From positions 192,001 through 256,000 of the forward strand of contig CAWBEI010000003.1 of NCBI GenBank assembly GCA_963787835.1: DNA of 64,000 nucleotides, read 5' to 3'. The translations under genes and the position numbers were made by a program. Under the pieces are notes generated by a model. The model had not been told where the DNA came from and did no database searches. It saw only the letters and a list, made by a program, of their open reading frames with translations. Position 1 is the first letter of the stretch. Every line of letters begins with the position of its first letter. This document shows positions 20,017 through 40,804 of this stretch, piece after piece. The DNA is from Ignavibacteriota bacterium. Lineage in GTDB: Bacteria > Bacteroidota > Ignavibacteria > Palsa-1295.

Positions 20017-21138
20017 GTGCGTTTTAAGATTTCCCTAACTTTTTCACTATTTCTGTTCGCTTTCTCCGGCATTGCGGGAAGATGCTTGTGCGGTGCCGAT
20101 GCTAACGCCCAGGAGCCAACTTCCGCTGCTACTGAAAGTCAGATAGTCGATTGCGGAACAGCACTTTCACGAGCCGAACACGCCTATGAACTCGGTAAAT
20201 TTCATGAGGTGCTCGATATCCTTTCTCCGTGTTTACCGGATGGATTAGCGGAAGACGATATTTGGCGCGGCTACCGCCTTCGCGCTATCGCGTACCTGAT
20301 GCTCGATAGTCCCGATAGCGCAGAGGATGCCATTCGCTATATGCTTCGAAAAAATCCGGACTATCGCGCAATTCCGGAAGTCGATCCTTACGAGTTCGTC
20401 CGGGCGCTTGCTCCTTATACTGATTACCCTCAATTCGCAATGGGAGTATTTCTCGATGGTTTAGCAACGGAGGTGCAATTGATCCAGGCAAACACTCTGA
20501 CCCAAACTGCCGCAACTTCGGGTGACTATGGCATACCGATCAAGATCAATGCCGGTGCGGAAGCATTATATTCTTTTAACCCAAAATTTTCAACGGGATT
20601 CGATATAGCCCTCCTGTATGAGGACATCGTGCGAAATCTTGATCCGATCCGTGGTGAATCCTCGCAATATACTGAGAATATTTCTTCTGTTGCTCTTCCA
20701 CTGTTTGCCCGATACCGTTTGGATACTTTGCATTTTCTTGGAACACGGATGCAGCCATTTTTCGAAGCTGGTGGATTCGGTCAATGGATCACTCCGATCG
20801 CCGCGAAGATCACGTTAACCGATCAGAGTGGCGTCACAACGCCCTTGCCGGATCCGAACCCCGGCGGGAGCAGAAAATCCTTCAATTATGGATGGACCGT
20901 AAGCGCAGGGATCGTCATTCCATTGCAAGGAGCTGAAATTATAGTCCGCGGAAGATATTGGAATGGGCTTACCGATCTAACCCAACCCTCGGCGCGCTAC
21001 TCCAACAGCCTTTTTTTACCTGCCTATTATGAGGCAGATGATATTGCGCTTCGAAATTTTGAGCTTTCGATCGGGATCAATCTGCTGTTCGGTTATCGGG
21101 AATATAAATTGGATGATCGACCATCCGGAAAACAATAA
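20017..21138 (+). CDS. outer-membrane beta-barrel (porin/PorT-like) protein with N-terminal TPR-like helical domain
   Basis: Signal peptide, helical repeat AEHAYELGKF...YRLRAIAYL, amphipathic strands (LPLFARY, GRYWNGLTDL, FELSIGINLLF); GTG 20017 chosen because TATCTTTG lies at 19985. Confidence 0.6.
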   Translation: MRFKISLTFSLFLFAFSGIAGRCLCGADANAQEPTSAATESQIVDCGTALSRAEHAYELGKFHEVLDILSPCLPDGLAEDDIWRGYRLRAIAYLMLDSPDSAEDAIRYMLRKNPDYRAIPEVDPYEFVRALAPYTDYPQFAMGVFLDGLATEVQLIQANTLTQTAATSGDYGIPIKINAGAEALYSFNPKFSTGFDIALLYEDIVRNLDPIRGESSQYTENISSVALPLFARYRLDTLHFLGTRMQPFFEAGGFGQWITPIAAKITLTDQSGVTTPLPDPNPGGSRKSFNYGWTVSAGIVIPLQGAEIIVRGRYWNGLTDLTQPSARYSNSLFLPAYYEADDIALRNFELSIGINLLFGYREYKLDDRPSGKQ

Positions 21139-22454
21139 TGGTGCGAATGAGAGTAACAGTTTTTCTTCTTACACTCGCACTGTCCGGCGTGGAGTGCAAG
21201 GCTCCGCTAAGTTCTGGTGCTACTCCGCAGAGCTACATCCGGTTGCTGGACGTCGATCCACCTGTTGCCGGGCCGAACGGCGTGGCTTCGACTCCGCTTG
21301 CAGTCATGCGGCAATCCCCGGATGGCAACATCCTTTTTCTCTATACCGCAACCGTTCCCGGCGCGGTTACGACCTCTATCGAGCTTACGGAAACGGACGC
21401 GAATGGGAATGTTCGTTGGACCAGCCATTTCCCTTCCACCACATCAAACGGCACCGATAGCTATGTGGCCGGAGATTGCATCGCCTTGTCGAATGGAACC
21501 ATTGCAGTGGCCGGTTCGCATCTTGTATCTTCCAATGGAAACGGCAGTAAATTCGAGTTGTTGTTCTTCGATGCCAATGGTAATCTCAAGCTAAATAAGG
21601 AATACGCTCCTGCGGAACCCTCTCTGCCGTTCCTTTTTGTATCTACCATCAGCCAAACCGATCCCGGGGACCTGATCCTCTGCGGCTGGGCAAAGCAATC
21701 AACCAATTCTACCGGTGGAAATAAAGAACTCATTGATCTATGGCTTTCCGGAAGCGGGGATTCTCTTGGGGTTGGTACGATCCTTCCTATCCTTGGTACC
21801 GCCGCTGATAATTATGAACTCCGGGCGATGAGCGCGCTTTCCGGTGATAGTGCCCTTGGCATTGGTTCGGATAAGCAAGGGACGGGCGGCGACGGAGTTC
21901 TCTATCTTTGGCAAGCACCCGATACGATCACCTATGCCGGTTACTTAGCAAATAATGTTAGAACCGGCACGCTTCGGAGTATCATTAGGAAAAAGGGTAC
22001 GTCCTCCTACATTATCGCCGGCGATACAAATTACTTCGCTGGCACCCCCAACACGCCGTGGATCGGACAAGTAGGCCCCCCATTTGCAGGCAATGACAAT
22101 CTTCAAATTCCCACCTGGACGCGAGGGATATTGAAAGACACCGGAACCATTACCAATATTATCCAAACTGCGGATGGCGGTCTGGCGGCAACAGGATATT
22201 CCGTTTCTGCCAGCGATACGTCGCTCACGGTGTTCCGCTTTACGATAAATGGAACGGATGTCTGGCCCTACAAAACGTATCCGTTCAATGGCGGGGACAT
22301 TCCCTACAACATCATTGAATTGCCGAATGGCGATCTCATCGTTGGCGGAGTAACCACAAGTTTCGGCAGCCGCTCTTCCGGCGTTCGGCAAATTTTTTTA
22401 ATACATCTTAAATCGGACGGAACGCCCGGCTTCGTAAATATTATAAGTTCTTGA
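21138..22454 (+). CDS. secreted/lipoprotein beta-propeller hypothetical protein
   Basis: N-terminal hydrophobic segment plus Cys; repeats TDANGNVRW, FDANGNL, IIQTADGGLAATG, IELPNGDLIVGG; TAATG coupling to the upstream gene. Confidence 0.6.
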   Translation: MVRMRVTVFLLTLALSGVECKAPLSSGATPQSYIRLLDVDPPVAGPNGVASTPLAVMRQSPDGNILFLYTATVPGAVTTSIELTETDANGNVRWTSHFPSTTSNGTDSYVAGDCIALSNGTIAVAGSHLVSSNGNGSKFELLFFDANGNLKLNKEYAPAEPSLPFLFVSTISQTDPGDLILCGWAKQSTNSTGGNKELIDLWLSGSGDSLGVGTILPILGTAADNYELRAMSALSGDSALGIGSDKQGTGGDGVLYLWQAPDTITYAGYLANNVRTGTLRSIIRKKGTSSYIIAGDTNYFAGTPNTPWIGQVGPPFAGNDNLQIPTWTRGILKDTGTITNIIQTADGGLAATGYSVSASDTSLTVFRFTINGTDVWPYKTYPFNGGDIPYNIIELPNGDLIVGGVTTSFGSRSSGVRQIFLIHLKSDGTPGFVNIISS

Positions 22455-22582
22455 GGGGACGTGATGAGCACTTCCACACTCTATGGCATACTCTAAGCCT
22501 ATTTTTTCTGGGCAGGCAGTAAAATTGTATTATTTTTGTAATGAATTGTCTCTTCAGAATTCATTCTTTTTCGTCTTTCTTT

Positions 22583-24949
22583 ATGTATTCTTCAAAGCAG
22601 CGTTCGTTAATTGTATTTCTCTGTACAGCATTTTTGCTTGGGATGCCGTTTTTAGGGCGGGCCCAGCAGATAACTCGCGTACACCCATCCAATATCGCGA
22701 TTCGCGGCATTGGCATGGGAAGTACGGCCACAGCGATCGCCGTCGGCGATTCCGCGTATGTCATCTATACCGGCTACGCCGACACGTTCAATCCATGGGA
22801 GCAGAGAAATACCGGTTACCCGACTTCGGTCACGTTCGATGCCGTCGCCTTTGCCGGAGACACGATGAATGCCGTGATCGCCGGCACGCAAGGTGCACTC
22901 GCCTGGACGAGCGATACCGGGGCGACCTGGCATCATGTGTCCGTCGGCACGACGGGAACCATCCGCGCCCTCGCCTATTCTTATAATAATGGTGGCATCG
23001 CGCAAGTCTATAATACCACCGGCGCCATGATCGGCGTGGGAGATGGCGGGCTTATCATCCGCTCGACCGATCAGGGGCACACATGGAGCACGATCACGTC
23101 CGGGACAACCGAGCAGCTCAATGCCATCAGCTTCGGATCGCCGAGCGAGGCCATTGCGGTCGGTAACGATACCACGATCCTGCAAAGCCACGATTCGGGC
23201 AAAACCTGGACGCCAATGAAGTTCCCGTACGACCTTCGTACCGCGTTCGGCGGCATCTACAACAACGTGGTCAAGAAAATAAACTTCACAGCAGTGGTCA
23301 TGGGACTGAACGATAGTATCTGGGTTGCGCTGGAAGGCCCCTCCCCCATACCTCCACTCCTGATCGATAATGGGGCTGCCAAGCAGGATCTGGTCTGTAG
23401 GGTTGTTACTGGCTACGCCAATCCACCCGCCTCATTGAATTACTCCATTACATCGCTCGCATACGTGAATATTCCGGGCTATATGAACGTCGCAGCGTTT
23501 ACCTCGAGCGATGTGATTCTTGTCGATACCGGAGGACAGGGGTGGTATGTGCTCGATTGGTATCAGTTTGGAGGCGATGCCGACGGTGGCGTTGCTCCCG
23601 CTGCGATTCACACACGCGGGGTTGGATACTGGATAACCGAAACCTATTTTAATTTTATGATGGGCGGAGATGATCTCATGATCTATCCCTTTGTCCAATT
23701 TGGGCCTCGAAATGATATCTATCCTTTCGCCCCCTTCTTCTATGGCTTATGGCTTCCCGGACGAGGAGATAACTACATGTGCTATCTTGACCTCGATATT
23801 TCGCAGAGTGGACTTGGATACTCATGTGGGTTAGGTCTGGAAGAACGGGAGACCACCGATGGTGGCTTTACGTGGTCTGATTATCTCCCGAGTTACGATA
23901 CCAGCCTCAACACGAATTCATACTCCTTCGATTGCGTGCATACGCTAAACAATGGCAATGCCATTTTCACTGGCTGGGATGGACTGATCTTCTACTATGA
24001 TCCGCTCGATACGCCAAAATGCCAGATCGTACCAACTGGAACGCAGGAACGATTGGAAGGCATTACATTCCCAACGTCGGATACTGCCTTCAATGTTGGG
24101 GATTTTGGGTCGGTCTTTAGAACTACGGATGAGGGCTTGACGTGGAACCCGATCAACACTCCAACCTCCGAGTATTTGTATTCGGTAGCGTTTGCAAATA
24201 ACGAGATCGGTGTTGCAGCGGGCAATGATGGAGAGATCATCCGGACAACGGATAATGGAAACACCTGGGCGGAAGTAAATAGCATCCTGACCGGTACCTC
24301 CATTGACATCCGAGGCTTGCAAGGGTTCCCCGATGGAACGTTCCTCGCCCGGGCCGGCAACGAGCTCCTTCGCTCGACCGACTTTGGGCAGAACTGGCTT
24401 TCCATCCTGCCATCCAGCATGAGCGACACCGACGGCATGAGCTTCTATTCTCCGCAGATCGGCATTATTGCCGAGCAACCCACCTCCAGCGCGAATTGCC
24501 CCGATACTGCGCACCTGGCTTATACAAGGGATGGAGGCGCAACATGGACCCAATTTGCAGTCCCGATCATCAATTACTACCGCATCCTGTTTCACTGGGT
24601 GAACGACCATGAGGTGCTTATCTATGGATGCTTAGGCATCATCGATGACATCGTTCTTTCAACCAATGGTGTGCAGGTTGCGCGCGTGGATGATAGTTCT
24701 GCGATACAAGTATATCCGAATCCCTCGAATGGCAGTGTGCAGGTTAGCTACACTGCAAAAACGAATGGGCCGGTTTCCATCGGTCTCTATGATGAGACTG
24801 GACGCTTATTGATGCAGATGTTCAATGGGCAGGAGATCGTTGGCGATCATGTCCACTCGTTCGATCTATCGAAAATAACGCAAGGATCCTATTACATCAG
24901 GCTCACGCATGAAGGGAAGACCTCCACTTCGCCCGTGAGCGTGGAGTGA
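22583..24949 (+). CDS. YCF48/BNR-repeat beta-propeller protein with T9SS type-A CTD
   Basis: Repeats VGDGGLIIRSTDQGHTW, TTDGGFTW, TTDNGNTW; CTD VYPNPS...GSYYIRL; ATG 22583 chosen (TATTTTTG at 22531). Confidence 0.85.
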   Translation: MYSSKQRSLIVFLCTAFLLGMPFLGRAQQITRVHPSNIAIRGIGMGSTATAIAVGDSAYVIYTGYADTFNPWEQRNTGYPTSVTFDAVAFAGDTMNAVIAGTQGALAWTSDTGATWHHVSVGTTGTIRALAYSYNNGGIAQVYNTTGAMIGVGDGGLIIRSTDQGHTWSTITSGTTEQLNAISFGSPSEAIAVGNDTTILQSHDSGKTWTPMKFPYDLRTAFGGIYNNVVKKINFTAVVMGLNDSIWVALEGPSPIPPLLIDNGAAKQDLVCRVVTGYANPPASLNYSITSLAYVNIPGYMNVAAFTSSDVILVDTGGQGWYVLDWYQFGGDADGGVAPAAIHTRGVGYWITETYFNFMMGGDDLMIYPFVQFGPRNDIYPFAPFFYGLWLPGRGDNYMCYLDLDISQSGLGYSCGLGLEERETTDGGFTWSDYLPSYDTSLNTNSYSFDCVHTLNNGNAIFTGWDGLIFYYDPLDTPKCQIVPTGTQERLEGITFPTSDTAFNVGDFGSVFRTTDEGLTWNPINTPTSEYLYSVAFANNEIGVAAGNDGEIIRTTDNGNTWAEVNSILTGTSIDIRGLQGFPDGTFLARAGNELLRSTDFGQNWLSILPSSMSDTDGMSFYSPQIGIIAEQPTSSANCPDTAHLAYTRDGGATWTQFAVPIINYYRILFHWVNDHEVLIYGCLGIIDDIVLSTNGVQVARVDDSSAIQVYPNPSNGSVQVSYTAKTNGPVSIGLYDETGRLLMQMFNGQEIVGDHVHSFDLSKITQGSYYIRLTHEGKTSTSPVSVE

Positions 24950-24974
24950 TCGTGATAAGCATCGTCGATGCTGC

Positions 24975-26117
24975 TTATTTCGCCCCGATCACTTCGTAGA
25001 TCTTGATCGGCTCTGCTTTGCCGCGAATGGGCATAGGCCCCAGTTCCCGTGCATTGATAATGTCAGATGCCGAATGATAGGTGTTTTCGCTGATAAGAAT
25101 CGCGTCCGGATGTCCCTTCGTCAGCGCCTCGATCCGTGAGGCTACGTTGACGGTATCGCCAATGGCGGTGTAATCCATCCGGTCTTCCGAGCCAATATTC
25201 CCAACAATGACCTCTCCGGAGTTGATACCGATCCCGATCTGAAGATCGCGGCCAATAACGGCGCGGTTGCGGTCATTAAAATGCTTCAATCCATCGCGAA
25301 TGGCCAGTGCAGCCATGACCGCATTTTCTCCGTTGCCAATATAGGAGACCGGCGCGCCGAAGAGCGCCAGCATTCCATCTCCAATAAATTTATTAACCGT
25401 CCCGTCATGCCGCTTGATGCAACCGGTGAGAAAGGAAAAGAAATCGTTAAGCAGATCGATGACCTTGGTCGGTTCAAGCTGCTCGGCAAGCTCGGTGAAA
25501 TCACGAATATCGGCGAACATCACGCTAACGATGCGGGTCTCAGCTTCCAGAAGCGGCATATCCTCAGTGCGGGACATAAGCTCTTCGAGCACGCGTTCGG
25601 GGATATATTTTTGGAAGAGTTTTACCAATCGTTCCTGATCGAGAACTTTCTGCTGCAACTCAGAGACGAGCCTGCGATTTTTGGCTTGCACCGCATAGTA
25701 TTCCAACGCAGCCTCCAGCGTCATTTTCAATTCTGCCTCATTCCACGGTTTTGTAATGTACCGATAGACACGGCCAGAGTTGATCGCTTTGATGATCGCA
25801 TCAATATCGCTGAAGCCCGTCAGGATCATACGCACGGCATCGGGGCATTCCGGGATGACCGCTTCTAAGAATTGTACGCCCGTCATCTCCGGCATCCGCT
25901 GATCGGTAACGATGAGGTGAATGGGAACTTCACGTATAATTCTCAGCCCCTCGCGGGCACTGATCGCAGTGTGAATCGTAAAATTCCTGCGGAATGCCGC
26001 GCGAAACGAAGTGAGGTTTTGCTCCTCGTCGTCCACATACAGAATGTTGTAGGGTGCACCGTTCTCTCGGTTCATGGTTTCGAATTGGGATTTTGCAGAG
26101 AAGTTTGTTTCTGGCAT
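24975..26117 (-). CDS. response-regulator (REC)-class III adenylate cyclase
   Basis: REC: VDDE, TDQRMP, TGFS, TKPW; cyclase: MFADIRDFT, NKFIGDG, DYTAIGDTVNVASRIE, IRGK. Confidence 0.93.
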   Translation of the reverse strand: MPETNFSAKSQFETMNRENGAPYNILYVDDEEQNLTSFRAAFRRNFTIHTAISAREGLRIIREVPIHLIVTDQRMPEMTGVQFLEAVIPECPDAVRMILTGFSDIDAIIKAINSGRVYRYITKPWNEAELKMTLEAALEYYAVQAKNRRLVSELQQKVLDQERLVKLFQKYIPERVLEELMSRTEDMPLLEAETRIVSVMFADIRDFTELAEQLEPTKVIDLLNDFFSFLTGCIKRHDGTVNKFIGDGMLALFGAPVSYIGNGENAVMAALAIRDGLKHFNDRNRAVIGRDLQIGIGINSGEVIVGNIGSEDRMDYTAIGDTVNVASRIEALTKGHPDAILISENTYHSASDIINARELGPMPIRGKAEPIKIYEVIGAK

Positions 26118-26155
26118 AAAAAATGTATTCGAACGAGCTTTTATAGGATTTAGGA

Positions 26156-27905
26156 TTAACTATTCAATTTCTGTTCGATGGGAAGCGTGATAATAAATTC
26201 GGTTCCATGACCAAATTCACTTTCCACTTCAATGGTACCACCATGTTTTTCGATAATGCCATAGGAAATGGAAAGACCCAGGCCCGTGCCCACACCGACA
26301 TCTTTCGTCGTAAAGAAGGGATCGAAAACTTGTTTACGAACTTCCTCTGGCATTCCCGTTCCACTATCCTTGAATCGAATTTCCACGGAATGGCTATCTT
26401 TTTTTCTGGTCCGGATCCAGATCTTTCCATTTCCGTCGCCTGACTTATTCTCTACAATGGCTTGGATCGCATTGGAAAGAATATTCATAAAGACTTGATT
26501 GAGCTGCCCTGCGAAACACTCTATCTCTGGAATATCTCCATAGTTCTTAATGATCTCCACATGGTCTTTGTATTTATTATGCAGCAATGTCAGCGTGGAA
26601 TCGATCCCCTGGTGAAGATCCGCAAGTTTGATCACCTGTTCGTCCGTTCTGGAGAAGTTCCGAAGTCCTTGCACGATCTCAGCAGTACGGTGGGCCCCTT
26701 CTTCGATGCCATCGAGCAGCGCAGTGATCTCTTTAACCGTGTATTCGAGATCGATGCCGATCTCTCGTTGCTTCAAGTTAGCAAGCGCAGCAGGAATGTC
26801 CTTCGTGGTCTGGAGTGCTCGATAAGCATCGAGGATATCATGGACTTCCCTCAGATTCCGCCGTAGCGGATTGACATTAGCAGAGACAAAGTTGATCGGA
26901 TTATTGATCTCGTGAGCAATGCCGGCGGTGAGCAAACCGAGTGAGGACATCTTCTCTGCCTGCACGAGTTGCCGTTGCGCTGTTTTGAGGTCGCTGAGTG
27001 CTCGATCGAGCTTTTGATAGGACTCCGCGTTATCGAGCGCAACCGCAATGTAAAGGGCAAGAGACTTCAACATATCGAGATGATAGGCCGAGAATGCCCC
27101 TTTGCGATAACTCCCGACGGCCATGACGCCGATCACGGTTCCCTTGGTGAACATTGGGATCGAGATGAGCGAGCGAATGCGTTCTGTTCCGGTTCTTAGT
27201 GGTGCAAGTTCCTGGACGTATCGGGCATAATTCGTTTCTACATCCTCTAAAAATACTTCCCTTCCATGCACCGCCGTCCAGGCTCCAAAGCTGCTGGGCG
27301 AATCGAGCGGAACGTTATACTGCTCGTTCTCGCCTCTGAGGTCGATCGAGAGGATCACATGAAGTTGCTGCGAAGAAGCATCGATCGTCGCCAGTTCGAA
27401 GGATGCTGCGTCCATCATCGTATTGAGCGTCCCAAAGGCGGTGCTTGCGATATCCCGCAAGTGAAGCGAAGCAATGATCTTCTGGCCCAACTCACTTACC
27501 ACGAGAAGATTATCATACGAAAGGCGGAGTTCGTCCGCAATAGATTTCTCCGTGGCGGCTGAAGCTTCGATGGCTTTAAAAGCGATCCTCACTTTCCTGC
27601 GCCTCGCGAAGTTTCCGAACAAGGTTATTGATGTTCGAGGCGATCTCTCCGAACTCCCCCTCTTTATTCATTACAACCAACCGTGCAAGGTCACCATTGT
27701 TCAGGGGACGAGTTTGTTCCGCTAAGTCGGAAACCGGATGAACAAGCTTAGCCCATAGCTGCGAAGCGGTCACATACAGAATGAATGCTGTTGGAATAGC
27801 AGCAATTGCAACCTGAATCCAACTCGCGGAAAACAGAAGCAAGGCGCTTATCACGATCGCCGTAATGAGCGCCGGAATAAGAATAAAAAAAGCCTTTAAT
27901 TTCAT
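26156..27905 (-). CDS. TM-HAMP-GAF sensor histidine kinase, split by a 1-nt frameshift near 27578
   Basis: ORF 27576-27905 is 2 TM plus HAMP; ORF 26156-27622 is GAF, HisKA (AHEINNP) and HATPase (N, DSGTG, FFTTK, GTGLGL); removing one T from CGC TTT T AAA joins them into about 582 aa. Confidence 0.88.
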
Positions 27906-28170
27906 CGGGTTCGTAAAGAAGCGTGCCCAGACAGAGGGTTGGGATTATCACACGGCTTCACCGGTACGTGTACGAAACAAAGGCGGAACTTCATCTTTAT
28001 GACAATTTAAGTACATAACAATTCAAGAATACTAATATACGAAGATTTTCAGCACCAAGACGAGATTTCATCCAAATGCCAAAATATTGTTGTATATTGC
28101 AATATTATTTTGGGTCTTGGACGTTCACCACGCCCTGGATCGAATGGTTGCGGTTCCTAACCCCTGAAAA

Positions 28171-29583
28171 ATGCCGGTTTCTGAGGAATGCATGATATTG
28201 TTCTGTGAGGATTCTTCTGTGCAAAACAGAGGAACTTCGCGTGCCCCTTCCTTTCAGAATCGCGAAGTAAAAAAGCCTCTTATGGAGGTATTACAGCAAA
28301 ATCTCGGGAATGGGGTCAAGAGCGAGACGTGCGAGTCTCGTGATCTACTCGACCGGGTTCGCGACCTGAGAACCTCATCCTTCGATCCTGTAGTAGTGTG
28401 GTTAGAACAATCTGCTTTGGCGGATTCTGAGCGTCGAATCCGGGAATGCCTCGAGGAGATCGGTGACCGAAGATTATTCGTCGTGATTACAACAACGGAC
28501 GACGATAATAGAATGGGCAACCTTGCAAAGGGCATCCATCCCTACTTTCTGGCAAAACCCACCGGTTCTCTTTCCTCCGAGACACAGTTCTGGCGGGTAA
28601 TAAATGCGCTTGCAGTCGATATTTCTCGCTCCGTAGCTACCGAGAGCGAAGATGATTCGAGACCATCTGTTTTTCTTGCACCCGTCGCAGAGCCTATCGA
28701 GCAATTAGCGCGCAAACTGCGCCATGATCTGGAAAGCCGAGGGTTCAATGTCAGGCCAAAAACGAATTCAGAACTCTTGGATCAGGTGGAAGCACTTTTG
28801 GCAAGAAGCGCATTATCGGTACATCTTTTTGGACAAAGCAATGCAAGTCTTATCGAGCGCGGGGCACAGCAGTCGATGGATGTATTTCGTTCTACGCTTG
28901 CATTCGCAAAAGCTCATCCTGAATTTCGGGTGCTTGGGTGGACGGATGCTCAAGCTTCCGAGGCAGCGACCTCCATGCTCGGCGACCAGATCCTGCGCGA
29001 GTCGAAAGAATTCAGTCTTTCAGCCGAAGTCATTCAAAGTACCTTCGAGGATTTTAAGTCGCTTCTTTATGATCGGTTGGGACAATCGGTGTCTGCATCA
29101 CCTACTATGCCCCCTTTCACTTCTACACCAGTCGTAGGACCAAAGGAAATTCCTGTTGTGGCCGGTATCGCCCACGATGCTCCCGGAGCACAGTTATACG
29201 TCATTTATGACCCGCGCGATGCCGAGGCAGCAAAACCAGTAACGAACTTTCTTCAACATCAGGGTATCGGAGTTCTCTTGCCTGAGTTCCCAACAGAGCA
29301 AAATACGCTCCGTGCCATTCACAATGAGAATCTTCGCCGGTGCGATGGTGTGCTCATTGTCTATGGTGCTGTGCAGGAGCAATGGGTGCGCATGAAACAG
29401 CAAGACCTGCTTCGCGCAGCCGCACTCGGAAGAAAAAAGAATCTATCTGCAAAGGGTGTCTTTTTATGCTCCAACAAGACGGAAGGGAAACTTCGGTTTT
29501 CGGCACCGGACATGATGGTCATCAATGGCTTCGACTCCACAGCCAATCTCGCACCGTTCATCCAGCGACTATCGGCATCGTAA
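28171..29583 (+). CDS. TIR-like/DUF4062-like multidomain protein
   Basis: Two recognisable TIR-like alpha/beta units (SVFLA...LESRGFNV...LSVHLFG; LYVIYDPRD...LRRCDGVLIVYG...WVRMK) and a degenerate N-terminal unit; ends 1 bp before the STAND gene. Confidence 0.6.
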   Translation: MPVSEECMILFCEDSSVQNRGTSRAPSFQNREVKKPLMEVLQQNLGNGVKSETCESRDLLDRVRDLRTSSFDPVVVWLEQSALADSERRIRECLEEIGDRRLFVVITTTDDDNRMGNLAKGIHPYFLAKPTGSLSSETQFWRVINALAVDISRSVATESEDDSRPSVFLAPVAEPIEQLARKLRHDLESRGFNVRPKTNSELLDQVEALLARSALSVHLFGQSNASLIERGAQQSMDVFRSTLAFAKAHPEFRVLGWTDAQASEAATSMLGDQILRESKEFSLSAEVIQSTFEDFKSLLYDRLGQSVSASPTMPPFTSTPVVGPKEIPVVAGIAHDAPGAQLYVIYDPRDAEAAKPVTNFLQHQGIGVLLPEFPTEQNTLRAIHNENLRRCDGVLIVYGAVQEQWVRMKQQDLLRAAALGRKKNLSAKGVFLCSNKTEGKLRFSAPDMMVINGFDSTANLAPFIQRLSAS

Positions 29584-29584
29584 G

Positions 29585-32500
29585 ATGGAAGAAACACCGA
29601 TAGCAACATCCATAGAGACAGCCGGAGGCGGCGGAGGTATGAATCCGTTCCCGGGTTTGCGCCCGTTCGATATTTGGGAGAATTACCTTTTCTTCGGAAG
29701 AGATAAGCAGGTCGATTCACTACTACAGAAGCTTTCCGATCATCATTTTGTCGCCGTAGTTGGAACTTCGGGAAGTGGGAAGTCCTCGCTCGTACGCGCG
29801 GGATTATTGCCCGCGCTCTATGGTGGCTATATGGTATCCGCCGGCTCGACTTGGCATGTTGCTGTGATGCGGCCTGGATCGAGTCCCATTCAAAATCTTG
29901 CCGAAGCGCTTTCTACAGACGATGTTTTTGGCACCACATCCAACAGCAGTTCCCAAACGGAGAGTATAGCTCGCCGTGCGGCAATTTTGGAATCGAGTTC
30001 TCTGGGTCTCGTGCAACTGGTGCGCCAGGCGGCATTGCCTTCGGATGAAAATTTGTTGCTTGTTGTAGATCAGTTCGAAGAACTATTTCGATTCAAGCAA
30101 AATAGGTCGATCGCGGATGCCGCCAATGAAGCATCTGCATTTATCAAGTTACTGCTCGAAGCGGTGCATCAGCGGCAGCTTTTCGATCTATGTGCTTCTG
30201 ACACTTCGAAGCGATTTCCTCGGAGATTGTGCGCAATTCCGCGATCTTCCGGAAGCGATCAACGAAGGCCACTATCTCATTCCGCGTCTGCTTCGCGAAC
30301 AGCAACGCGAAGCGATACTTGGACCTGTTGCGGTCGGTGGCGGAAAAATTTCTCCGCGATTAGTACAGCAGCTTCTCAACGATCTCGGCGATAATCCCGA
30401 TCAGCTTCCGATCATGCAACATGCGCTCATGCGAACATGGGATAAGTGGGAGCACGAGCATGAGCCCGGGGAGCCGATCGACTTCCGGCATTATGAAGCC
30501 ATCGGGCGTATGCAGCACGCGCTCAGCGAGCATGCCGACGAGGCATTCAATGAACTTCCGAACGAACGAAGCAAAATGATCGCGGAGGCAATGTTCAAAT
30601 GCCTCACAATGCGTGGGCCAGATAATCGGGGAATTCGTCGTCCAACGAAAATTGCAGAGATCTGCGCAATTGCTGGTGCAGAGCCGAGCGAGGTGATCGA
30701 GGTCGTCGAATATTTCCGGCGACCGGGCAGATCATTCATTATGCCCCCGCATGGTGTGGAACTTACTCCCGAAACCGTGCTTGATATTTCGCATGAGAGC
30801 TTGATGCGCGTATGGGACCGGCTTGTCAAGTGGGTGGACGATGATGCTGTCTCCGCACAGATGTACCTCCGGCTCGTTGGCTCCGCCGATCTTTATGCAA
30901 AGGAGCAGGCCGGCCTTTGGCGCGACCCCGAATTGCAGCAAGCTGTCAACTGGCGCGATACCCACAAACCAAACGAGGCATGGGCCAATCGTTATTCCAC
31001 TGCATTTGGACCCTCGATGCAGTTCCTGATCGATAGCGTAAAACAACGTGAGCAGGAACATGTTGAAAAACGCCGTCGTCGCCGATTAGTAAATGCGTTC
31101 ATTGTGGCGTTCCTTGCCTTTGCCGGGGTGCTTACCGTCTGGGCACTAACAGAACGAAGTTCGGCTACGCGGAACGCCGCTTCCGCAGAACGCCTTCAGA
31201 AGGTTGCGCAAGATCAGGAACAGAAAGCCGAAAAAAGCGCCATCGTGGCTGACGAGCAAAAACGAAGCGCTATTGCGGCCTCGCACGAAGCGGAAGCTCA
31301 AAAGAAGCTGGCCGAGCAACAGCGCGCCTCTGCACTTTCAGAAAAACTGAATGCTGAAAATTCCCGCGCCGATGCGGAGCGATCGAGTGTTGTTGCAAAC
31401 GAACAACGCACTGCTGCTCAAGCCCAAAGCCATATCGCGGACAGCATGAAAAATCTTGCGGAAAAATCTGCGAGCGATGTATCGCGGCTCCGTTATCTTT
31501 CCATCGCCAAGGCGCTTGCAGTAAAAGCGGAACATCTTCAAACTTCTGACCACGATCTTGTAGGGCTTCTCGCATTACAAGCCTACCGGTTTAGTCATGA
31601 GAATGGCGGTTCGGCAATGGATCCCGATATTTTTGGCGCCCTGCATTCGGCGGATAAATTATTGAATGCATCCGCACTCTCACTTCAAGGGCCGCATGGG
31701 AGCAATATTCGTTCCGAACTCTTTCGAAACGATCAGGAACTTGTCTCCGCCAGCACCGATGGTAAGATCGTGGATTGGGATGCGGGTTCACCAAAGGCCA
31801 TTGGATCGCACTCGGCTTCTCGTACACTCGCGCTCAGCCCCGATGGTGCAACGATCTGTGCAGCGGGCAACGATGGCGTTCTTCATCTTTATTCCTTGAC
31901 GAACGGGTCTGTCTCCAATGTTCCTGTTGGAGTTTCCTATGTGGTGCAAGCTCATTATATTGATAATGCTTCCATAGCGCTTTTGAGTAACGATGGACGT
32001 ATTCACATTGTGAATCCCGCGAATGGAAGGGAGTCATCCATCCTTGCTTTGCCGGGGAACATTCGTTCCTTCGATCTAAACAGCAATATCCACGAGCTTG
32101 CCGCCGGTGACGAACTGGGAACGATCGGTATCTGGAATTTAACATCTCTGAATGGGCTAGCATCCAGAACCAGCTCCGTGAATGGCGCTATTTCTGCAAT
32201 CAATTTTAGCCGTGACGGCAAAATGCTTGCAGCTGGCACGCAGAAGGGCGCGATCTACCTTTGGAACACATCCGGCGAGCAGGGGCAATCGCTCCCAAAA
32301 CCGCAAGTAGCAACAACAACCGGTGAGCCGATTCACGCGATCGCCTTCAGTCCTGACGGCAGAATGTTGGCCAGTGGCAGTTCGAATGGCACGGTGCGCC
32401 TTTGGAATCCGGATCGTATGGCGGAGATACCCATCACGCTTGCCGATAACTCTGCATGGATGTGGTCGCTGGCCTTCAGCCCGGATGGCAGCACGCTTGC

Positions 32501-32672
32501 GGCCTCCAGTGCGGATAAATCCATTCATCTCATTCCAGTGCAGCCAGATGCAATTGTACGGCAAGTTCAACAGAAGATCGGACGAAATCTGACCCATAAG
32601 GAATGGGATCAATTCATAGGCTCTGATGTGCCTTATGCGGAAACGATTCCTGAGTTAGGAACGAAGGAATAA
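29585..32672 (+). CDS. nSTAND1-type NTPase - TM - coiled coil - WD40 repeat protein, split by a 1-nt frameshift near 30180
   Basis: NPFPGLRPF, FFGRD, Walker A GTSGSGKSS, Walker B VVDQFEELF, LTLRSDF, LPIMQHAL, ISHESL; TM after RRRRR; WD40 repeats AFSPDG; removing one T at 30180-30183 joins the frames into about 1028 aa. Confidence 0.88.
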
Positions 32673-32695
32673 AACGTCTGTAACTTTATTTACAA

Positions 32696-35029
32696 ATGAA
32701 ACGTCCCACGGTTCGTCCTCTGTCAGTGTATTGTTTTCTTTTGCTTTCAACCGGTGCCACTGCGCAACACATTGCTCAAATTAGCCCCCCAAATATATCC
32801 TTTCGAGGTGTCAGCATTGCAGACTCGACCCATTCGATGGCAGTCGGCGATTCGGCAACGGTAATATTAAGCAATTCCGGTTATATACCGAATTGGCATC
32901 TACTATCCTCCCCATGCAGTAAAAACCACACACTTAATGGCGTGAGTTACTACGACAGCCTTCATGCTATAGTTATTTCAGATATGGGACTCATCTTCGC
33001 GACCTCTGACGAGGGACAAACCTGGAATCCATCCGGAACAGGATTGACACGTCAGACATTGCGTGGTATCACGCATACCGAGGATGGGGCACTGATAACC
33101 GTCGGGGACAGCGGCATCATTTTTCGTTCCACCGATGGAGGGCTGAATTGGAGTCGGATTGCTTCCTCGACGTCGCTCAATATTTACGGACTCTCGATCA
33201 ATGTATCCGGGCACGGTTACTTCGTCGGTCAGAACGGACTGGTGGGAAAAACCACCGATTATGGTAAATCCTGGCCGATCGTAACGGATACGAATGCCTT
33301 CGGGTTTATGGCTACCATCCCATCTACGCTTCGCGCCATAGCGATATGTACGAACGATTCCGCGGTTGCGGTTGGAGACAGTGGCGCGGTTGGCTTTACT
33401 TCTGACGGCATCCATTGGAAGGCGCTGAGTGGATTTCCTCAGTCAAATGTAGATAGTATTGCCTTTTATTATCCTCCGGAATCAATTGCACGGACGTCGT
33501 TTCGTGCAGTCATGTATTGTCCCTTGCGATTTGAATTCGGTCCGGGTACTTGGATCATTTGGGGTGATAACGACATATCGGCTGGAATTGTCGATTCTGC
33601 ACTATTCTATCCAGCTCCAAAAAATAGTATATCTAAGTCTCTTGATAGTTCTGCAGTGCTTGTATTTTCCTTTAATTTCCTTGCGGGAGATGCCGATGGC
33701 GGCAGGGATCTCCTCGCTTTTAGAGTACTTTGTGCGGATTATTTTAGTGTGAATCGCAGGATGGATTTTGGGGGGTCGTTTGAGCAATCATTTCATTGCT
33801 CATTCCCAACCGATTCAACATTGATTCTTTATGCCCAGCCTGGATTTAGGGAAAATTTCCTTTTCGCTTCGATCGATAGCATGGGATTTGGATATGCAAC
33901 ATGCACTGGAGGGTTTTTTCTAAAAACAACGGACAATGGATTTTCATGGGGAATCGTCCGGGTGAACGATACTTCGTTTGCCTATCGCAGCTTTGATGCC
34001 ACGGACATCCACACTATTGATTCCAATCATGCGTTTGCGGTCGGCTGGTCAGGTAACCTTTTTCGAACGACGAATGGCGGCATCACCTGGGATAGCTCCA
34101 ATATCGACAATAACTTAGAACGCCTGCAAGGTATCTCATATCCCGCAAAAGGTGTAGCTGTGGTGGTTGGTGACTTTGGCGCCATCCTTCGAAGCACGAA
34201 CGATGGTGCATCTTGGAATTATATCTCTCAAAGCATCACAGAAAGTTTTCTCGAAGCGGTTGCGTTTTCTTCGCCGGAGATAGGAGTAGCTGTCGGTACA
34301 AGCGCAGAAATATTGCGAACTGCCGATCAAGGGGTGACCTGGACCGAGATCAACAATCCGCTCACAGGGCAGAATGTTTCATTCCGGGAAATTGCCGCAT
34401 TCCCCGATGGCACCTATTATACAACAACAGATTCTATGGGGCTGTGGAGATCGATCGATCAAGGAGAGAATTGGAACCGAGTTATTGCAATCCCTAACAC
34501 GATCAGCTTAGGATTCTATGATGAAAACACCGCAGTTGTTGCGGAAAAGACATGGTCGTCCGCAATTGTTCCTGACACAATGCTGCTCGCATTCACGAGG
34601 AATGGTTTTGCTACAAAGACAGAATTTAATATCCCAATTATCAACAATAATAGAATTGTATTTCATTTCATTGACTCCAATACCTTCCTCTGTTTTGGCT
34701 CGGATGGCTTTGTGGTGAAGGTAGAGATGTCGCAAGGCGGCGCAAGCGTTACGGAGCTTTCATCATCGCAAACCTCGCCGGTACAAGCATTCCCAAATCC
34801 CTGCGTTACACATTCAGTGACGATCGAATATGATCTCGATAACTCAGGCACAACGGCCGTCGAACTTTGGAACACGCTCGGCGAAAAAGTGCAAGCCTTG
34901 TTCACAGCAAATGAATTAGCTGGACATCATTCTCAAGTGCTTAAAATAGATCCCGAATTGCATGGTGCGTTCTTTGTCAAAGTGATTTCTGGGACAGAAG
35001 CAAAGATGCTGCCTATTAGTATCGAATAA
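32696..35029 (+). CDS. YCF48/BNR-repeat beta-propeller protein with T9SS type-A CTD, paralog of 22583-24949
   Basis: VGDSGIIFRSTDGGLNW, TTNGGITW repeats; CTD AFPNP...GAFFVKV. Confidence 0.85.
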   Translation: MKRPTVRPLSVYCFLLLSTGATAQHIAQISPPNISFRGVSIADSTHSMAVGDSATVILSNSGYIPNWHLLSSPCSKNHTLNGVSYYDSLHAIVISDMGLIFATSDEGQTWNPSGTGLTRQTLRGITHTEDGALITVGDSGIIFRSTDGGLNWSRIASSTSLNIYGLSINVSGHGYFVGQNGLVGKTTDYGKSWPIVTDTNAFGFMATIPSTLRAIAICTNDSAVAVGDSGAVGFTSDGIHWKALSGFPQSNVDSIAFYYPPESIARTSFRAVMYCPLRFEFGPGTWIIWGDNDISAGIVDSALFYPAPKNSISKSLDSSAVLVFSFNFLAGDADGGRDLLAFRVLCADYFSVNRRMDFGGSFEQSFHCSFPTDSTLILYAQPGFRENFLFASIDSMGFGYATCTGGFFLKTTDNGFSWGIVRVNDTSFAYRSFDATDIHTIDSNHAFAVGWSGNLFRTTNGGITWDSSNIDNNLERLQGISYPAKGVAVVVGDFGAILRSTNDGASWNYISQSITESFLEAVAFSSPEIGVAVGTSAEILRTADQGVTWTEINNPLTGQNVSFREIAAFPDGTYYTTTDSMGLWRSIDQGENWNRVIAIPNTISLGFYDENTAVVAEKTWSSAIVPDTMLLAFTRNGFATKTEFNIPIINNNRIVFHFIDSNTFLCFGSDGFVVKVEMSQGGASVTELSSSQTSPVQAFPNPCVTHSVTIEYDLDNSGTTAVELWNTLGEKVQALFTANELAGHHSQVLKIDPELHGAFFVKVISGTEAKMLPISIE

Positions 35030-35062
35030 GATTAAAGCTGGCATCGCCAATACCACAAATAG

Positions 35063-38000
35063 TTACCTTGATCGTTGTGCGGCTTCATTTTGCTTGCGAA
35101 TTCGCCGGCAGAGCGTCGTGATCGCACCGCGCGCGATCTCGATGTTATCTATCATCAGATCGTAGAACACTTCCCGATCGAGCTTGAGGAGGGTCGTTTC
35201 TTCCAGTGCCGTTACGGATGCGGATCGAGGCTCGGGATCCAACAGCGCCATTTCACCTACCACATCCCGTGCGTGTAATTCGGAAAGTTGATGTTCGCCA
35301 TCATGAACGCGCACACGCCCCTCGACAATGATATACAGGCAGCTTCCTGTCTCGCCTTTCTCGATGATTCGCTCCCCAACAGAGGCATGAACTTCCTCCA
35401 GCGCCTGCGCAATATGAGAAAGCACCGGATCGGGCGTTTCGTGAAACAAATCGACCGTCTTTAATAAAATGACGCGTTCAAATAAATGTGGCATAGGTTC
35501 CTCGTCCTTGGACTTGTAGTAAAAATGAGCGACCGCAAGGGTCCAGGGTTCGTAAAAATGGTCATCATCGCGCAGGAGATTGTTCCATGCTATCTCGTGG
35601 GAGCCGTGTTCAAGATCCTGTGGAATGATGTCAGCCAGCGTGGTATGGTCGGTAATATGTGCTGAATGCTTAGCTCCATCATGATTGGTCCTTCTAAGAA
35701 AAAGCGTTGCTTCGAGCAATGCAACCACTTCTTTCGCAAGATCCGGAGCGAGGATCTGATCCAGAACTTCAAATGCGTTGGCATGATGCAGATGTTCGCC
35801 GATGAGCAGGCTGTCACGCACCCGGCGTAGCGTTACAGGATCATATTCAAGCTCCAATAGCATCAGCACGCGATCTGCCGCTTGTGCGACCTCATGCGAA
35901 AGCGTGCTTCGAAATAATTCCGACACTGGAAGATTTGTTGAATGTCCATTTGTGGATTCAAGAGAATGAATGATGGTAATAAGCTTGCGGACGCGCCGAA
36001 GTTCCTCAGCTATGATACGTGTGATGATATCAGAATCGTTTATTCGGATACCATTGGTCGTAAGCGCATGCAACGCAGCCAATCGCAGGGTTCCCAGCAC
36101 TCGCGGTGCTTCGTCGATGGTACCACCTACGGTTCCACCGCTGGACGGATTCGGCCAGGTTAACAGTGCGACCAATAACTGAATGGATTGTTCGGAGAAT
36201 GGTGCGTGCTCACCCTTACTCCAATGACCGAGCAGGCGCGCAATTCGTGGTAAGCGGGCACTTCCGACATGTCCCTCCTCGATGTGGTGCGTGAGGTGCG
36301 GCAGCACCGCATTGCCAAAGGCCTGCAGAGCATGCTCGATAAGGATGAGCGTTTGCCGAGTGGTTGCGGGTTGTAGATACAGATCGAGTATTGGTTCGAT
36401 AAGTTGCGGATGAGCAACCAGCGCGGATGCTCGAATCGCAGCAAGCCGCACTTCCGAATTCTCGTCTCGCAGAAGCGCAAGAAGGGAATGATAGAACTGA
36501 CGAACCCCAACTCCGCCTATGATCTTCGCGGCAGAAACGCGCACGCTGGGATCGGTGCTGTGCGCCATGGACTGCACGAATTCACCAGCCACAAGCACCC
36601 CGTCGATCCCTTTATGCTTGATGAGCCCGGCAAGCAGCCCTTCTCGCACGGGGAGTCGTTCATCATCGAGCCACTGCTTCATATCTTCGGCCTCAAGTTC
36701 CGGAGAAACGGCAGAATAGACCCGCAACGTTTGGCCCAGCATCGTTCCATCGTCGTGATTCAGATCGATTTTAGCGTTCGTTAACACAGCATCTAAAATG
36801 GTCTTAGCGCGAAGGCGTTCGGCGGCAGAAAATTCAAGATCATCCACGCGGCGTAGGGCAGCGATTCGAACGGACAATTCACCGTGTGCGAGCAAGTTGG
36901 GTAAGGCGTCGATGAGGAACGTATGTTCGGTCGGAGGAATAAGATGCAAGGCATATTCCACTTCCATCGGATGCGCGCTATGCAGCTTTTCTAAGACCAT
37001 GCTTCGCGCGGCATGATCCCAGACCAGCGCTGATGACATAAGCCGCCGGTGCTTCAACGCCCGGAGCACTGTTCTCTTGTATTCGCGGTCGAACCAAAGA
37101 AGTGTTCCCGCCCACGCTGCAAACACCCCAAGCATTACAAAACTGATCCCACGCAACGAGAAACCAATAGAAACGGAGAGCACATATAACAGGATGGACG
37201 CTGCACCTAACGCAAGCGGTTCAATGATTCCACCAATGGCTTGATGCCCGCGATGCTGAAGGTGTTTCGAGAGCGGTTGCATGGCAATGGCCAATGCAGG
37301 AACCTGAACGGCCTCCGACCACAACTCGACAAGCAACATTCCACCAATGAACGCCCAGATCATGGCGGGTGCGGCACCTGCGACCGATGCAGAATTTGCG
37401 CTAAAGATTAGTCCAGCAACGGTGGTAATGAGTAGTCCGATGGGCAGCACGATGATCGTTCTTGCGAGTCCGAACTTACTGAAGAGTCGCCCAACGACAC
37501 CGACTTTGAGCAACAGACTCGCCAGTTTTGCTACTCCGAGGAACAGTCCGATGAAATTTGCAACTTGTGTGAGGCTTTCTTTTCGTTCCTCGATCTCTCG
37601 AAGAAATCCAAAGTCGATACAGGTCGTTGCAAAGAGCGCCAGGAACGCAACCAGAGACACACTTGCGATATACGTATCCCGCCAAATGAACGTGAGTGAG
37701 TTTTGCTTCCCGTCATGATGCTTCGGCTGTTCGAACGCCGTTCTGGAATGATGTTTTTGTTTCCCATCTGTATGCATTGCCATCAGATGCGAGTAATTTG
37801 AAATGATTTGCTGTAGCACAAAGACACTTATCGCTGTTCCACCGGCGGAGAGAATCAACAACTGCGGTACTTTCAAGAACGAGGTCAATAGCGGGACAGA
37901 AAAATAGCCGAGTATTTTTGCAAGGAACGATCCTGAATCTATCAAACTGAACAGCCGCTTCCCTTGCCGGACATCGAAAAGATGCATGGGAAGCCCCCAA

Positions 38001-38440
38001 AACTCACTTTGAGCTACGAAGATCATAATACGGGACCACACCAATAGCCCAAACGCAATGGCGAGCGGGGGAATCTGCAAGGCGTATTCCTCCATTGCGT
38101 AGAAGGCGACCGTTCCGGCCACGAGCAGGATCAGCGCAAGCCGGAGCACTTGAAATTGACCGATCGCATGCTCTAAGCGTTCGGAGCTATACCCGATCAG
38201 AAGTTCAAGAACCGCAGCCGCCGCAAACGCGCACGGAAGATACACGATCGGAAAGGAATCAAGAAAGATCGGAAGTGCTGCTGAGATCAGATACGCAACC
38301 CCGACCCCGAGAAAGAACGAGTGCGTCCAGAGCAGCGCCACGGGGCGCATCTCATGCGAACGCAAGTTCAGGGTTTGAAGAACTACTCGCTTACCCCAGG
38401 ATGTTCGAAAAGAGCCTTGACGATTTGGAGATGAATCCAT
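35063..38440 (-). CDS. Npt/TLC-like nucleotide translocase (MFS fold) - HEAT repeats - cNMP-binding domain fusion
   Basis: About 12 TM with FWG...FDVRQGKRLFSLI motif; HEAT repeats (LLRDENSEVRLAAIRA); C-terminal cNMP domain with GEMALLDPEPRSASV; start ATG 38440. Confidence 0.82.
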   Translation of the reverse strand: MDSSPNRQGSFRTSWGKRVVLQTLNLRSHEMRPVALLWTHSFFLGVGVAYLISAALPIFLDSFPIVYLPCAFAAAAVLELLIGYSSERLEHAIGQFQVLRLALILLVAGTVAFYAMEEYALQIPPLAIAFGLLVWSRIMIFVAQSEFWGLPMHLFDVRQGKRLFSLIDSGSFLAKILGYFSVPLLTSFLKVPQLLILSAGGTAISVFVLQQIISNYSHLMAMHTDGKQKHHSRTAFEQPKHHDGKQNSLTFIWRDTYIASVSLVAFLALFATTCIDFGFLREIEERKESLTQVANFIGLFLGVAKLASLLLKVGVVGRLFSKFGLARTIIVLPIGLLITTVAGLIFSANSASVAGAAPAMIWAFIGGMLLVELWSEAVQVPALAIAMQPLSKHLQHRGHQAIGGIIEPLALGAASILLYVLSVSIGFSLRGISFVMLGVFAAWAGTLLWFDREYKRTVLRALKHRRLMSSALVWDHAARSMVLEKLHSAHPMEVEYALHLIPPTEHTFLIDALPNLLAHGELSVRIAALRRVDDLEFSAAERLRAKTILDAVLTNAKIDLNHDDGTMLGQTLRVYSAVSPELEAEDMKQWLDDERLPVREGLLAGLIKHKGIDGVLVAGEFVQSMAHSTDPSVRVSAAKIIGGVGVRQFYHSLLALLRDENSEVRLAAIRASALVAHPQLIEPILDLYLQPATTRQTLILIEHALQAFGNAVLPHLTHHIEEGHVGSARLPRIARLLGHWSKGEHAPFSEQSIQLLVALLTWPNPSSGGTVGGTIDEAPRVLGTLRLAALHALTTNGIRINDSDIITRIIAEELRRVRKLITIIHSLESTNGHSTNLPVSELFRSTLSHEVAQAADRVLMLLELEYDPVTLRRVRDSLLIGEHLHHANAFEVLDQILAPDLAKEVVALLEATLFLRRTNHDGAKHSAHITDHTTLADIIPQDLEHGSHEIAWNNLLRDDDHFYEPWTLAVAHFYYKSKDEEPMPHLFERVILLKTVDLFHETPDPVLSHIAQALEEVHASVGERIIEKGETGSCLYIIVEGRVRVHDGEHQLSELHARDVVGEMALLDPEPRSASVTALEETTLLKLDREVFYDLMIDNIEIARGAITTLCRRIRKQNEAAQRSR

Positions 38441-38468
38441 TATCGAACGATAACAAGCATAGAACGCG

Positions 38469-39086
38469 ATGCGTCCCAGCACCATGATTGTTCCTCCGCA
38501 TTCCCTCGTACCCCAGATCGAAACATTCTCACGCGAGATCATCGCCACATTACCGGCCGGATATACCTACCATTGTATCGAACACACCGAGATGGTCGTG
38601 AGGCACACAACGATGATAGCGGATTCGATCCAGCTAACCGAAGAGCAGACGGCACTGCTCATCATGGCGGCCTGGCTTCACGATGTGGGGTTTCGCATCC
38701 GGTATAAGGGGCATGAAAGAGATAGCTGCGTTGCTGCACGAGAAAAGCTTGCGGATGTACTAACTCCCGAGGATATGGCGACCATTGAAGAAGCCATTAT
38801 GGGAACGGAGATTCCTCAGCGCGCGACCCATCCTATCTCACAAGCGCTTTGCGACGCCGATCTGTTGTACTTAGGTGGCGATCACTTCTTTGATTGGAGC
38901 GCGCGGCTGCGCGAAGAGCATCAGAAGGTTCTTGGACGTGAATACAGCGATCAACAATGGATCGAATTTAACATTGACTTCGTCCGCAATCATACATTCT
39001 TCACAGCATTTGCTCGGGAACATTATGGCGAGGGTCTTTTAAAAAATCTGGATGCGTTGGAACTGATGAGAGCGGAGTCCCTCTGA
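38469..39086 (+). CDS. HD-domain metal-dependent phosphohydrolase
   Basis: YHCIEHT, AAWLHDVG, GHERDS, LCDADL. Confidence 0.88.
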   Translation: MRPSTMIVPPHSLVPQIETFSREIIATLPAGYTYHCIEHTEMVVRHTTMIADSIQLTEEQTALLIMAAWLHDVGFRIRYKGHERDSCVAAREKLADVLTPEDMATIEEAIMGTEIPQRATHPISQALCDADLLYLGGDHFFDWSARLREEHQKVLGREYSDQQWIEFNIDFVRNHTFFTAFAREHYGEGLLKNLDALELMRAESL

Positions 39087-39328: not shown

Positions 39329-39456
39329 GTCAAGTGCCGGAAGACAAACGATACCATTCTTCTTTACGTCTCTATGTTGCTACTATCCATTTGAACCATG
39401 GGTCCGGCTTGTGAATTTTGACAAATCGAACTTTTTTGATCTATTCAACTCTTTGC

Positions 39457-40782: not shown

Positions 40783-40804
40783 CCATTTTAGCTTTGTTTC
40801 TGAG

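What the first reader, a model, noticed from the sequence alone, without database searches (positions are those of the whole stretch)
24975..39086. Self-contained cyclic-nucleotide circuit clustered with an NLR-like STAND receptor and a cNMP-binding nucleotide translocase
Seen: within 14 kb lie a TM-HAMP-GAF histidine kinase 38 bp upstream of a REC-cyclase (intact phospho-Asp; Lys and DYT residues of class IIIb adenylyl cyclases), a divergent TIR-like plus nSTAND1-TM-WD40 operon, a translocase-HEAT-cNMP fusion with an intact GE...RSA phosphate-binding cassette, and a stand-alone HD hydrolase. Established: these domain classes can respectively make, bind and hydrolyse nucleotide signals, and STAND/TIR proteins act in bacterial threat sensing. 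Inference: this is one writer-reader-eraser cAMP module wired to an envelope-sensing STAND receptor, with a membrane transporter rather than a CRP-type regulator as output. I know of no characterised system with this architecture.
Basis: partly seen in the sequence, partly recalled or inferred. Interest (0 to 1): 0.85.

Follow-up and report, generated by a model that had tools for sequence, protein, structure and literature searches.

The report
cAMP circuit grafted onto STAND operon
This stretch is the meeting point of two separately conserved gene sets, an NLR-like ATPase operon predicted to span the cell envelope, here carrying a kinase and a likely cAMP-making enzyme, and a transporter-plus-hydrolase pair that likely reads and removes cAMP; the two became neighbours only recently, so they probably share a signal but are not one ancient unit.

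Summary
All named genes and motifs are real; the kinase and the STAND gene each carry a one-base frameshift that relatives lack. The 14 kb is not one conserved module. Module A (19960-35029, wider than the finding) is a lineage-specific version of a Bacteroidota operon: translocase-HEAT-cNMP, triple-TIR, nSTAND1-TM-WD40, outer-membrane barrel, lipoprotein, T9SS cargo (STAND and translocase together in 28 of 40 sampled loci, never with cyclase or HD). In this genus it lacks the native translocase and holds a kinase plus REC-cyclase; its TIR lacks the catalytic Glu. Module B is a translocase of another clade with an intact cNMP site plus the HD gene; it lies near a cyclase in 33 of 80 loci, and HD and cyclase have the same distribution in 15 of 15 genus genomes. 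In both other genomes with module A, B lies elsewhere; only a close relative shares the junction. The genome has no CRP and no other canonical cNMP domain, so a cyclase-translocase-HD circuit is likely; control by the STAND protein is untested, and anti-phage defence is unlikely. Earlier scan notes describe each module separately.

The parts
19960..21138 (+). Module A: outer-membrane beta-barrel (OMP_b-brl_2) with a conserved ~100-aa two-cysteine helical N-domain
   Evidence: Pfam; N-domain shared with barrels and TonB receptors that follow this STAND clade
21138..22454 (+). Module A: predicted beta-propeller lipoprotein
   Evidence: No Pfam hit; Atlas look-alikes are propeller proteins; homologs in 22 of 40 operon loci
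22541..24949 (+). Module A: T9SS-sorted BNR/YCF48 propeller protein, copy 1
   Evidence: Pfam/NCBIfam; tandem arrays of 6 copies in G006 and 8 in G008 at the same cassette
24975..26117 (-). Receiver-class III adenylate cyclase (likely writer)
   Evidence: Pfam; best PDB match CyaB 3r5g, E 1.8e-36; catalytic motifs intact; 81-95% identical in G008, G006, L037
26156..27905 (-). 2TM-HAMP-GAF histidine kinase, split by a one-base frameshift near 27579; almost no periplasmic loop
   Evidence: intact 582-658 aa in L037, G006, G008
28171..29583 (+). Triple-domain TIR / DUF4062-like / TIR-like protein, catalytic Glu motif missing (likely adaptor)
   Evidence: 3169 representatives at E<=0.001; three alpha/beta domains in the model, pLDDT 70; motif absent in 12 of 12 close homologs
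29585..32672 (+). nSTAND1 NTPase-TM-coiled coil-WD40, split by a one-base frameshift near 30180; Walker A and B intact
   Evidence: intact 1047/1046 aa in G006/G008; sister to the 30-row operon clade, support 95
32696..35029 (+). Module A: T9SS-sorted BNR/YCF48 propeller protein, copy 2 (29% identical to copy 1)
35063..38548 (-). Module B: NTT-HEAT-cNBD protein with intact GE...RSA motif (likely reader; substrate unknown; probable start at 38440)
   Evidence: model matches AtNTT1 9j3l; HD/cyclase clade in the tree; only cNMP domain over cut-off in the genome
38469..39086 (+). Module B: stand-alone HD protein with all metal ligands (candidate phosphodiesterase)
   Evidence: within 1 kb of the translocase in 42 of 80 loci; same distribution as cyclases in 15 genus genomes

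Best explanation
The locus joins two separately conserved modules that likely work in one cAMP circuit: a kinase would phosphorylate the receiver-cyclase, the cAMP would bind and regulate the translocase-like protein, and the HD protein would remove it, while the STAND operon around the kinase and cyclase is predicted to be an envelope-spanning sensor whose control over them is untested. Shown: the genes, motifs, gene orders, trees and distributions. Inferred: Asp72 phosphorylation by the adjacent kinase; cAMP as product; binding to the cNBD; hydrolysis by HD; topology of module A (T9SS propellers outside, barrel and lipoprotein at the outer membrane, WD40 in the periplasm on a coiled-coil stalk, NTPase and an inactive TIR adaptor in the cytoplasm). 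History: the genus version of the STAND operon lacks its native pseudo-cNMP translocase and carries the kinase/cyclase pair; the cAMP-type translocase/HD pair moved beside it recently.
For: Cassette cyclase-kinase-TIR-STAND in the same order in G006, G008, L037 and contig X3. Translocase scan, best 80 of 579: HD in 44, cyclase in 33 (24 within 3 kb); of 48 loci of 20 kb or more, both in 22 and cyclase without HD in 1. The neighbouring cyclases fall in several unrelated groups. Genus: HD and cyclase both present in the same 10 and absent in the same 5 of 15 genomes, translocase in 8 of the 10; in G003, G010 and G011 the only cyclase lies by the pair. cNMP motif intact in 85 of 95 non-STAND rows, 0 of 27 STAND-operon rows. 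G000: 2 cyclases, 1 cNMP domain over cut-off, no CRP over cut-off. G006 and G014 keep the pair beside an operon that lies on another contig in G000.
Against: No biochemical test. Related genomes are not independent, so all counts overstate. G000 has a second cyclase in a chemosensory cluster that could be the true writer. 15 of 48 long translocase loci have neither HD nor cyclase; G005 and G013 have HD and cyclase but no translocase found (85-89% complete). The HD's closest other relatives are HD-PycTM fusions and it has no PDB relative, so its substrate is unknown. Two frameshifts in about 4,600 codons against a background of 1 in 40 genes may mean decay in this strain.
Confidence: 0.55

Rival explanations
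1. Chance neighbours: the STAND operon with its kinase and cyclase works independently of the translocase/HD pair, which serves another cyclase or another nucleotide and landed here by rearrangement.
For: Pair is elsewhere in 2 of 2 other cassette genomes; its flanks differ among genus genomes; translocase is not of the STAND-operon clade; the window cyclase is not grouped with other translocase-flanking cyclases.
Against: The pair repeatedly sits beside unrelated cyclases; it is the only canonical cNMP reader in the genome; it fills a slot that a translocase holds in 28 of 40 operon loci; junction shared by contig X3.
Confidence: 0.3
2. Anti-phage or anti-predator defence: the STAND senses an invader and the cyclic nucleotide triggers a lethal membrane effector, as in Pycsar, CBASS or Avs.
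For: nSTAND1 was defined in conflict systems (PMC8195603, passages); patchy in the class (5 of 251); expanding propeller arrays; G006 cassette ends at a tRNA and integrase-like gene; HD relatives fused to PycTM.
Against: TIR catalytic motif absent in 12 of 12 close homologs and at the third domain in 35 of 35 rows; PADLOC hits only shared cyclase/cNMP domains; the parent operon is syntenic across many families of one order; cyclase has purine-type residues and sits behind a two-component kinase.
Confidence: 0.08
3. One reading: all six genes form one conserved, co-evolved module.
For: All parts within 14 kb here and on contig X3; translocase beside STAND in 28 of 40 loci.
Against: 0 of 40 STAND-operon loci carry cyclase or HD; 1 of 80 translocase loci of the scan carries nSTAND1; separated in G006 and G008.
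Confidence: 0.05

Closest known systems
NTT-HEAT-cNBD fusions (Major, Embley, Williams 2017, PMC5381601; passages read)
   Same: Same three-domain architecture; the paper already suggests that the cNBD could bind cAMP to tune transport and says the function is unknown.
   Different: The passages seen do not mention HD or cyclase neighbours, a STAND operon, or the split into an intact-cNBD clade and a dead-cNBD clade.
nSTAND1 conflict systems (Kaur et al. 2021, PMC8195603; passages read)
   Same: nSTAND1 NTPase with a TIR-type partner gene and a repeat sensor domain.
   Different: Described there with FGS/lectin domains and active effectors; here TM + WD40, inactive TIR, outer-membrane barrel, lipoprotein, T9SS cargo and a kinase/cyclase pair.
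Class III adenylate cyclases such as Pseudomonas CyaB (PDB 3r5g) and receiver-cyclase two-component outputs
   Same: Catalytic and purine-selecting residues kept.
   Different: No CRP in the genome; the only canonical reader is a membrane carrier-like protein.
Pycsar / Avs antiphage systems (recalled; PADLOC models)
   Same: Cyclase plus cNMP-binding membrane protein; STAND sensor.
   Different: Only domain-level hits; no PycTM or active TIR effector; phosphorelay input.
Canonical ATP/ADP translocases AtNTT1 and Chlamydia NTT1 (PDB 9j3l, 9j3n)
   Same: Same fold and profile match E 2e-18.
   Different: Several lysines of the canonical carriers are replaced in the family profile, so ATP/ADP exchange is not established.

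Membership tests
NTT-HEAT-cNBD fusions | NTT-fold membrane domain | tested here: met
   Model best matches 9j3l/9j3n; profile hits both at E<=4e-18; TLC Pfam hit in relative L033
NTT-HEAT-cNBD fusions | HEAT repeats then a C-terminal cNBD | tested here: met
   Pfam; GE...RSA at 1098-1110
Canonical ATP/ADP translocases | Conserved basic residues lining the nucleotide site (their importance is recalled, no paper found) | tested here: not met
   Three lysine positions of 9j3n/9j3j are replaced in the family profile
Canonical ATP/ADP translocases | Nucleotide transport activity | not testable with these tools
   Needs uptake assays
nSTAND1 clade | PF20703 domain with intact Walker A/B | tested here: met
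   Two halves at 144 and 165 bits, cut-off 27; motifs
nSTAND1 counter-invader systems | Enzymatically active effector (TIR NADase, caspase, nuclease) | tested here: not met
   TIR Glu motif absent in 12 of 12 close homologs; G008 ORF lacks the first domain
Bacteroidota envelope STAND operon (undescribed; earlier scan notes) | TIR3, STAND-TM-WD40, N-domain barrel, lipoprotein and T9SS cargo together | tested here: met
   All present within 15 kb, rearranged; STAND is sister to the operon clade
Bacteroidota envelope STAND operon (undescribed; earlier scan notes) | Native translocase with a dead cNMP motif | tested here: not met
   Window translocase is in the other clade with intact motif
Class III adenylate cyclase | Two metal Asp, Lys and Thr/Asp for adenine, Asn/Arg (roles recalled) | tested here: met
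Pycsar | PycC-type pyrimidine cyclase beside PycTM or PycTIR | tested here: not met
   Partial domain hits only; cyclase closer to CyaB; no effector gene
cNMP phosphodiesterase | Hydrolysis of 3',5'-cNMP | not testable with these tools
   Metal ligands intact; only guilt by association

The most novel reading that the evidence does not exclude
An NLR-like STAND receptor reads the state of secreted surface propellers across the envelope, drives the adjacent kinase and cyclase through an inactive TIR scaffold, and the resulting cAMP gates a carrier that has replaced the operon's native cAMP-blind carrier: the same output reached first by direct contact and now by a second messenger.
Probability: 0.2. 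Interest if true: 0.82.

Novelty: new variant of a known kind. Interest (0 to 1): 0.58.

Why it matters
NTT-HEAT-cNBD proteins have had no function since their description in 2017. This genome offers a clean test: no CRP, one canonical cNMP reader, an adjacent cyclase and a candidate new phosphodiesterase. The split into an intact-cNBD clade travelling with cyclases and HD, and a dead-cNBD clade fixed in STAND operons, gives two testable modes of control. If the STAND operon drives the cyclase, it would be an NLR-type protein used for ordinary envelope signalling rather than cell suicide.

Tried and rejected
Complex prediction of the WD40 region with the barrel N-domain: tool not available, so that contact is untested. 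Search for long fusions of the HD: none among 2069 candidates, weak evidence. Read mapping: near-identical contigs miss both frameshift sites; RNA run X6 covers pieces of most genes at 90-98% likeness, but contigs cannot show expression. Promoter/terminator scan: at chance level (19 vs 21; 25 vs 21). Fold search of the TIR model: only generic alpha/beta matches, no TIR structure among the best. Metagenome scan with the close TIR alignment: 2 loci only. Phylum search with the single translocase: 8 of 301, low sensitivity. My first 'OMP' hits on L094 and L119 were TonB receptors sharing only the N-domain. Fisher tests treat kin as independent and are not used as proof. The translocase tree is the quick version; 17 duplicate or partial loci were dropped before building it. 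Papers: no description of either neighbourhood found in searches (listings only, except passages of three papers); supplements of PMC8195603, PMC7159879 and PMC5381601, which list gene neighbourhoods, were not read and may bear on novelty.
Full report
Observation. ORF and Pfam scans confirm every gene named. The receiver-cyclase keeps Asp72, both metal aspartates, Lys243, DYT and Asn/Arg (roles recalled) and is closest to CyaB among solved structures. The kinase has two TM helices with a loop of about five residues, so it is not itself a periplasmic sensor. The kinase and STAND genes each carry one extra base in a four-base run; G006, L037 and contig X3 lack it. Background in this assembly is 1 split gene in 40 tested, and near-identical short-read contigs miss both sites, so assembly error is plausible but not shown. 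The closest named translocase records carry Kapaibacterium, Ignavibacteriota or Bacteroidetes titles, which places the lineage among Bacteroidota relatives of Kapabacteria.

Two modules, not one. The TIR-like gene was found in 3 of 61 genomes including this one. In G006 and G008 the order cyclase, kinase, TIR, STAND is the same and is flanked by tandem T9SS propeller genes (2 here, 6 in G006, 8 in G008). The translocase/HD pair is 670 kb away in G006 and on another contig in G008. G006 and G014 keep the pair beside an operon that lies on contig C2 in this genome, so the move is recent. One 11.7-kb contig of run X3, 86-98% identical by piece, runs from the cyclase into the translocase, so the junction is not a misassembly.

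Module A. The gene at 19960 has a conserved two-cysteine helical N-domain found in 116 of 301 genomes of the order of G161 (called Cytophagales in earlier scan notes). I fetched 40 loci around such hits (37, 3; chosen for strong scores, long contigs and family spread). With profiles built here, nSTAND1 was in 32, a translocase in 29, both in 28, the triple-TIR in 24, the lipoprotein in 22, all four core genes in 22, cyclase and HD in 0. The usual order is translocase, TIR, STAND-TM-WD40, barrel, lipoprotein, giant T9SS protein. The window STAND is sister to this clade (FastTree support 95). In the window's class the STAND is rare, 5 of 251. The TIR protein belongs to a large family, models as three alpha/beta domains, and has lost the WCxxE motif in 12 of 12 close homologs; the motif is in 30 of 63 broad members. 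Some operons carry a HAMP-SpoIIE phosphatase between translocase and TIR (3 checked), and kinase/receiver pairs follow the barrel in L094 and L185, so a replaceable signalling enzyme beside the STAND recurs; here it is a kinase plus cyclase. The trans-envelope topology is inferred from one TM helix, the coiled coil and the exported neighbours; no contact was tested.

Module B. Among the best 80 of 579 translocase hits, HD was present in 44 (42 within 1 kb), a class III cyclase in 33 (24 within 3 kb), nSTAND1 in 1; among the 48 loci of 20 kb or more, 22 had both, 10 HD only, 1 cyclase only and 15 neither. Kinase plus receiver-cyclase beside the translocase also occurs in L031, L053, L079 and L089, and the cyclases belong to several unrelated groups. 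In the genus, HD and cyclase share the same 10 of 15 genomes and the translocase is in 8 of those 10. The tree separates a 6-row clade holding the four STAND-linked translocases from a 70-row clade holding the window's. The GE...R[ST][AG] motif is in 0 of 27 STAND-operon rows and 85 of 95 others. This genome (98% complete) has two cyclases, one cNMP domain over cut-off and no CRP over cut-off. The membrane domain has the NTT fold but lacks several lysines of the canonical carriers, so its substrate is open. The HD keeps its metal ligands; its other relatives are fused to PycTM.

Mechanism. Most likely the kinase phosphorylates the cyclase, cAMP binds the carrier's cNBD and changes transport or its HEAT-mediated contacts, and HD ends the signal (all inferred; 0.55). 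Whether the STAND feeds the kinase is untested (about 0.2). That a cAMP-competent carrier now sits where the parent operon keeps a cAMP-blind one is suggestive but could be chance (0.3). Defence is unlikely (0.08): no active effector, only domain-level PADLOC hits.

Known work. PMC5381601 (passages) describes the fusion and already proposes cAMP control. PMC8195603 (passages) defines nSTAND1; PMC7159879 (passages) showed nothing matching. Searches found no description of either neighbourhood; supplements were not read. Earlier notes of this scan, seen after my own tests, describe both modules in other genomes; none was returned for the hybrid. What is new here is the kinase/cyclase-bearing variant with propeller arrays, the two-clade split of the cNMP site, and the recent junction. 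Verdict: observation confirmed, interpretation partly supported, new variant, interest 0.58.

Noticed in passing
window 39418-47631: ECF sigma factor, ChrR-type anti-sigma, DUF4331 T9SS protein, TPR protein, DUF6702, HupE/UreJ and a TonB receptor in one direction, right after the HD gene.
   Followed up: no
L142 (G000:C2:1862000-1876000): The genome's second cyclase, REC-REC-cyclase, lies between a CheA-like kinase and CheB.
   Followed up: partly
L143 3611-6657: Kinase with a weak cNMP-like domain next to a receiver-thioredoxin-reductase fusion.
   Followed up: no
L135-L139, L141: Relatives of the HD are HD-PycTM fusions in several families of the class; no paper holds both terms.
   Followed up: partly
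L177 8275-11928: A multi-TIR-WD40 fusion without STAND sits directly before the N-domain barrel.
   Followed up: no
L163 1900-8000: N-domain barrel and translocase flank a phage tail-tube (gp19) gene, without STAND.
   Followed up: no
L004 4040-5790: In G006 the propeller array ends at a tRNA-Ser and an integrase-like ORF.
   Followed up: no
L181: In G008 the barrel, lipoprotein, a 1597-aa protein and a second propeller array lie on another contig than the STAND cassette.
   Followed up: partly
L011 4766-9874: Kinase-AAA-GAF-cyclase of 1702 aa directly downstream of the translocase in G003.
   Followed up: partly
window 54898-56192: Two same-strand ORFs overlap by about 48 bases; possibly another frameshift.
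   Followed up: no
window 19-104 and 47839-47921: Two tRNA-Ser genes.
   Followed up: no
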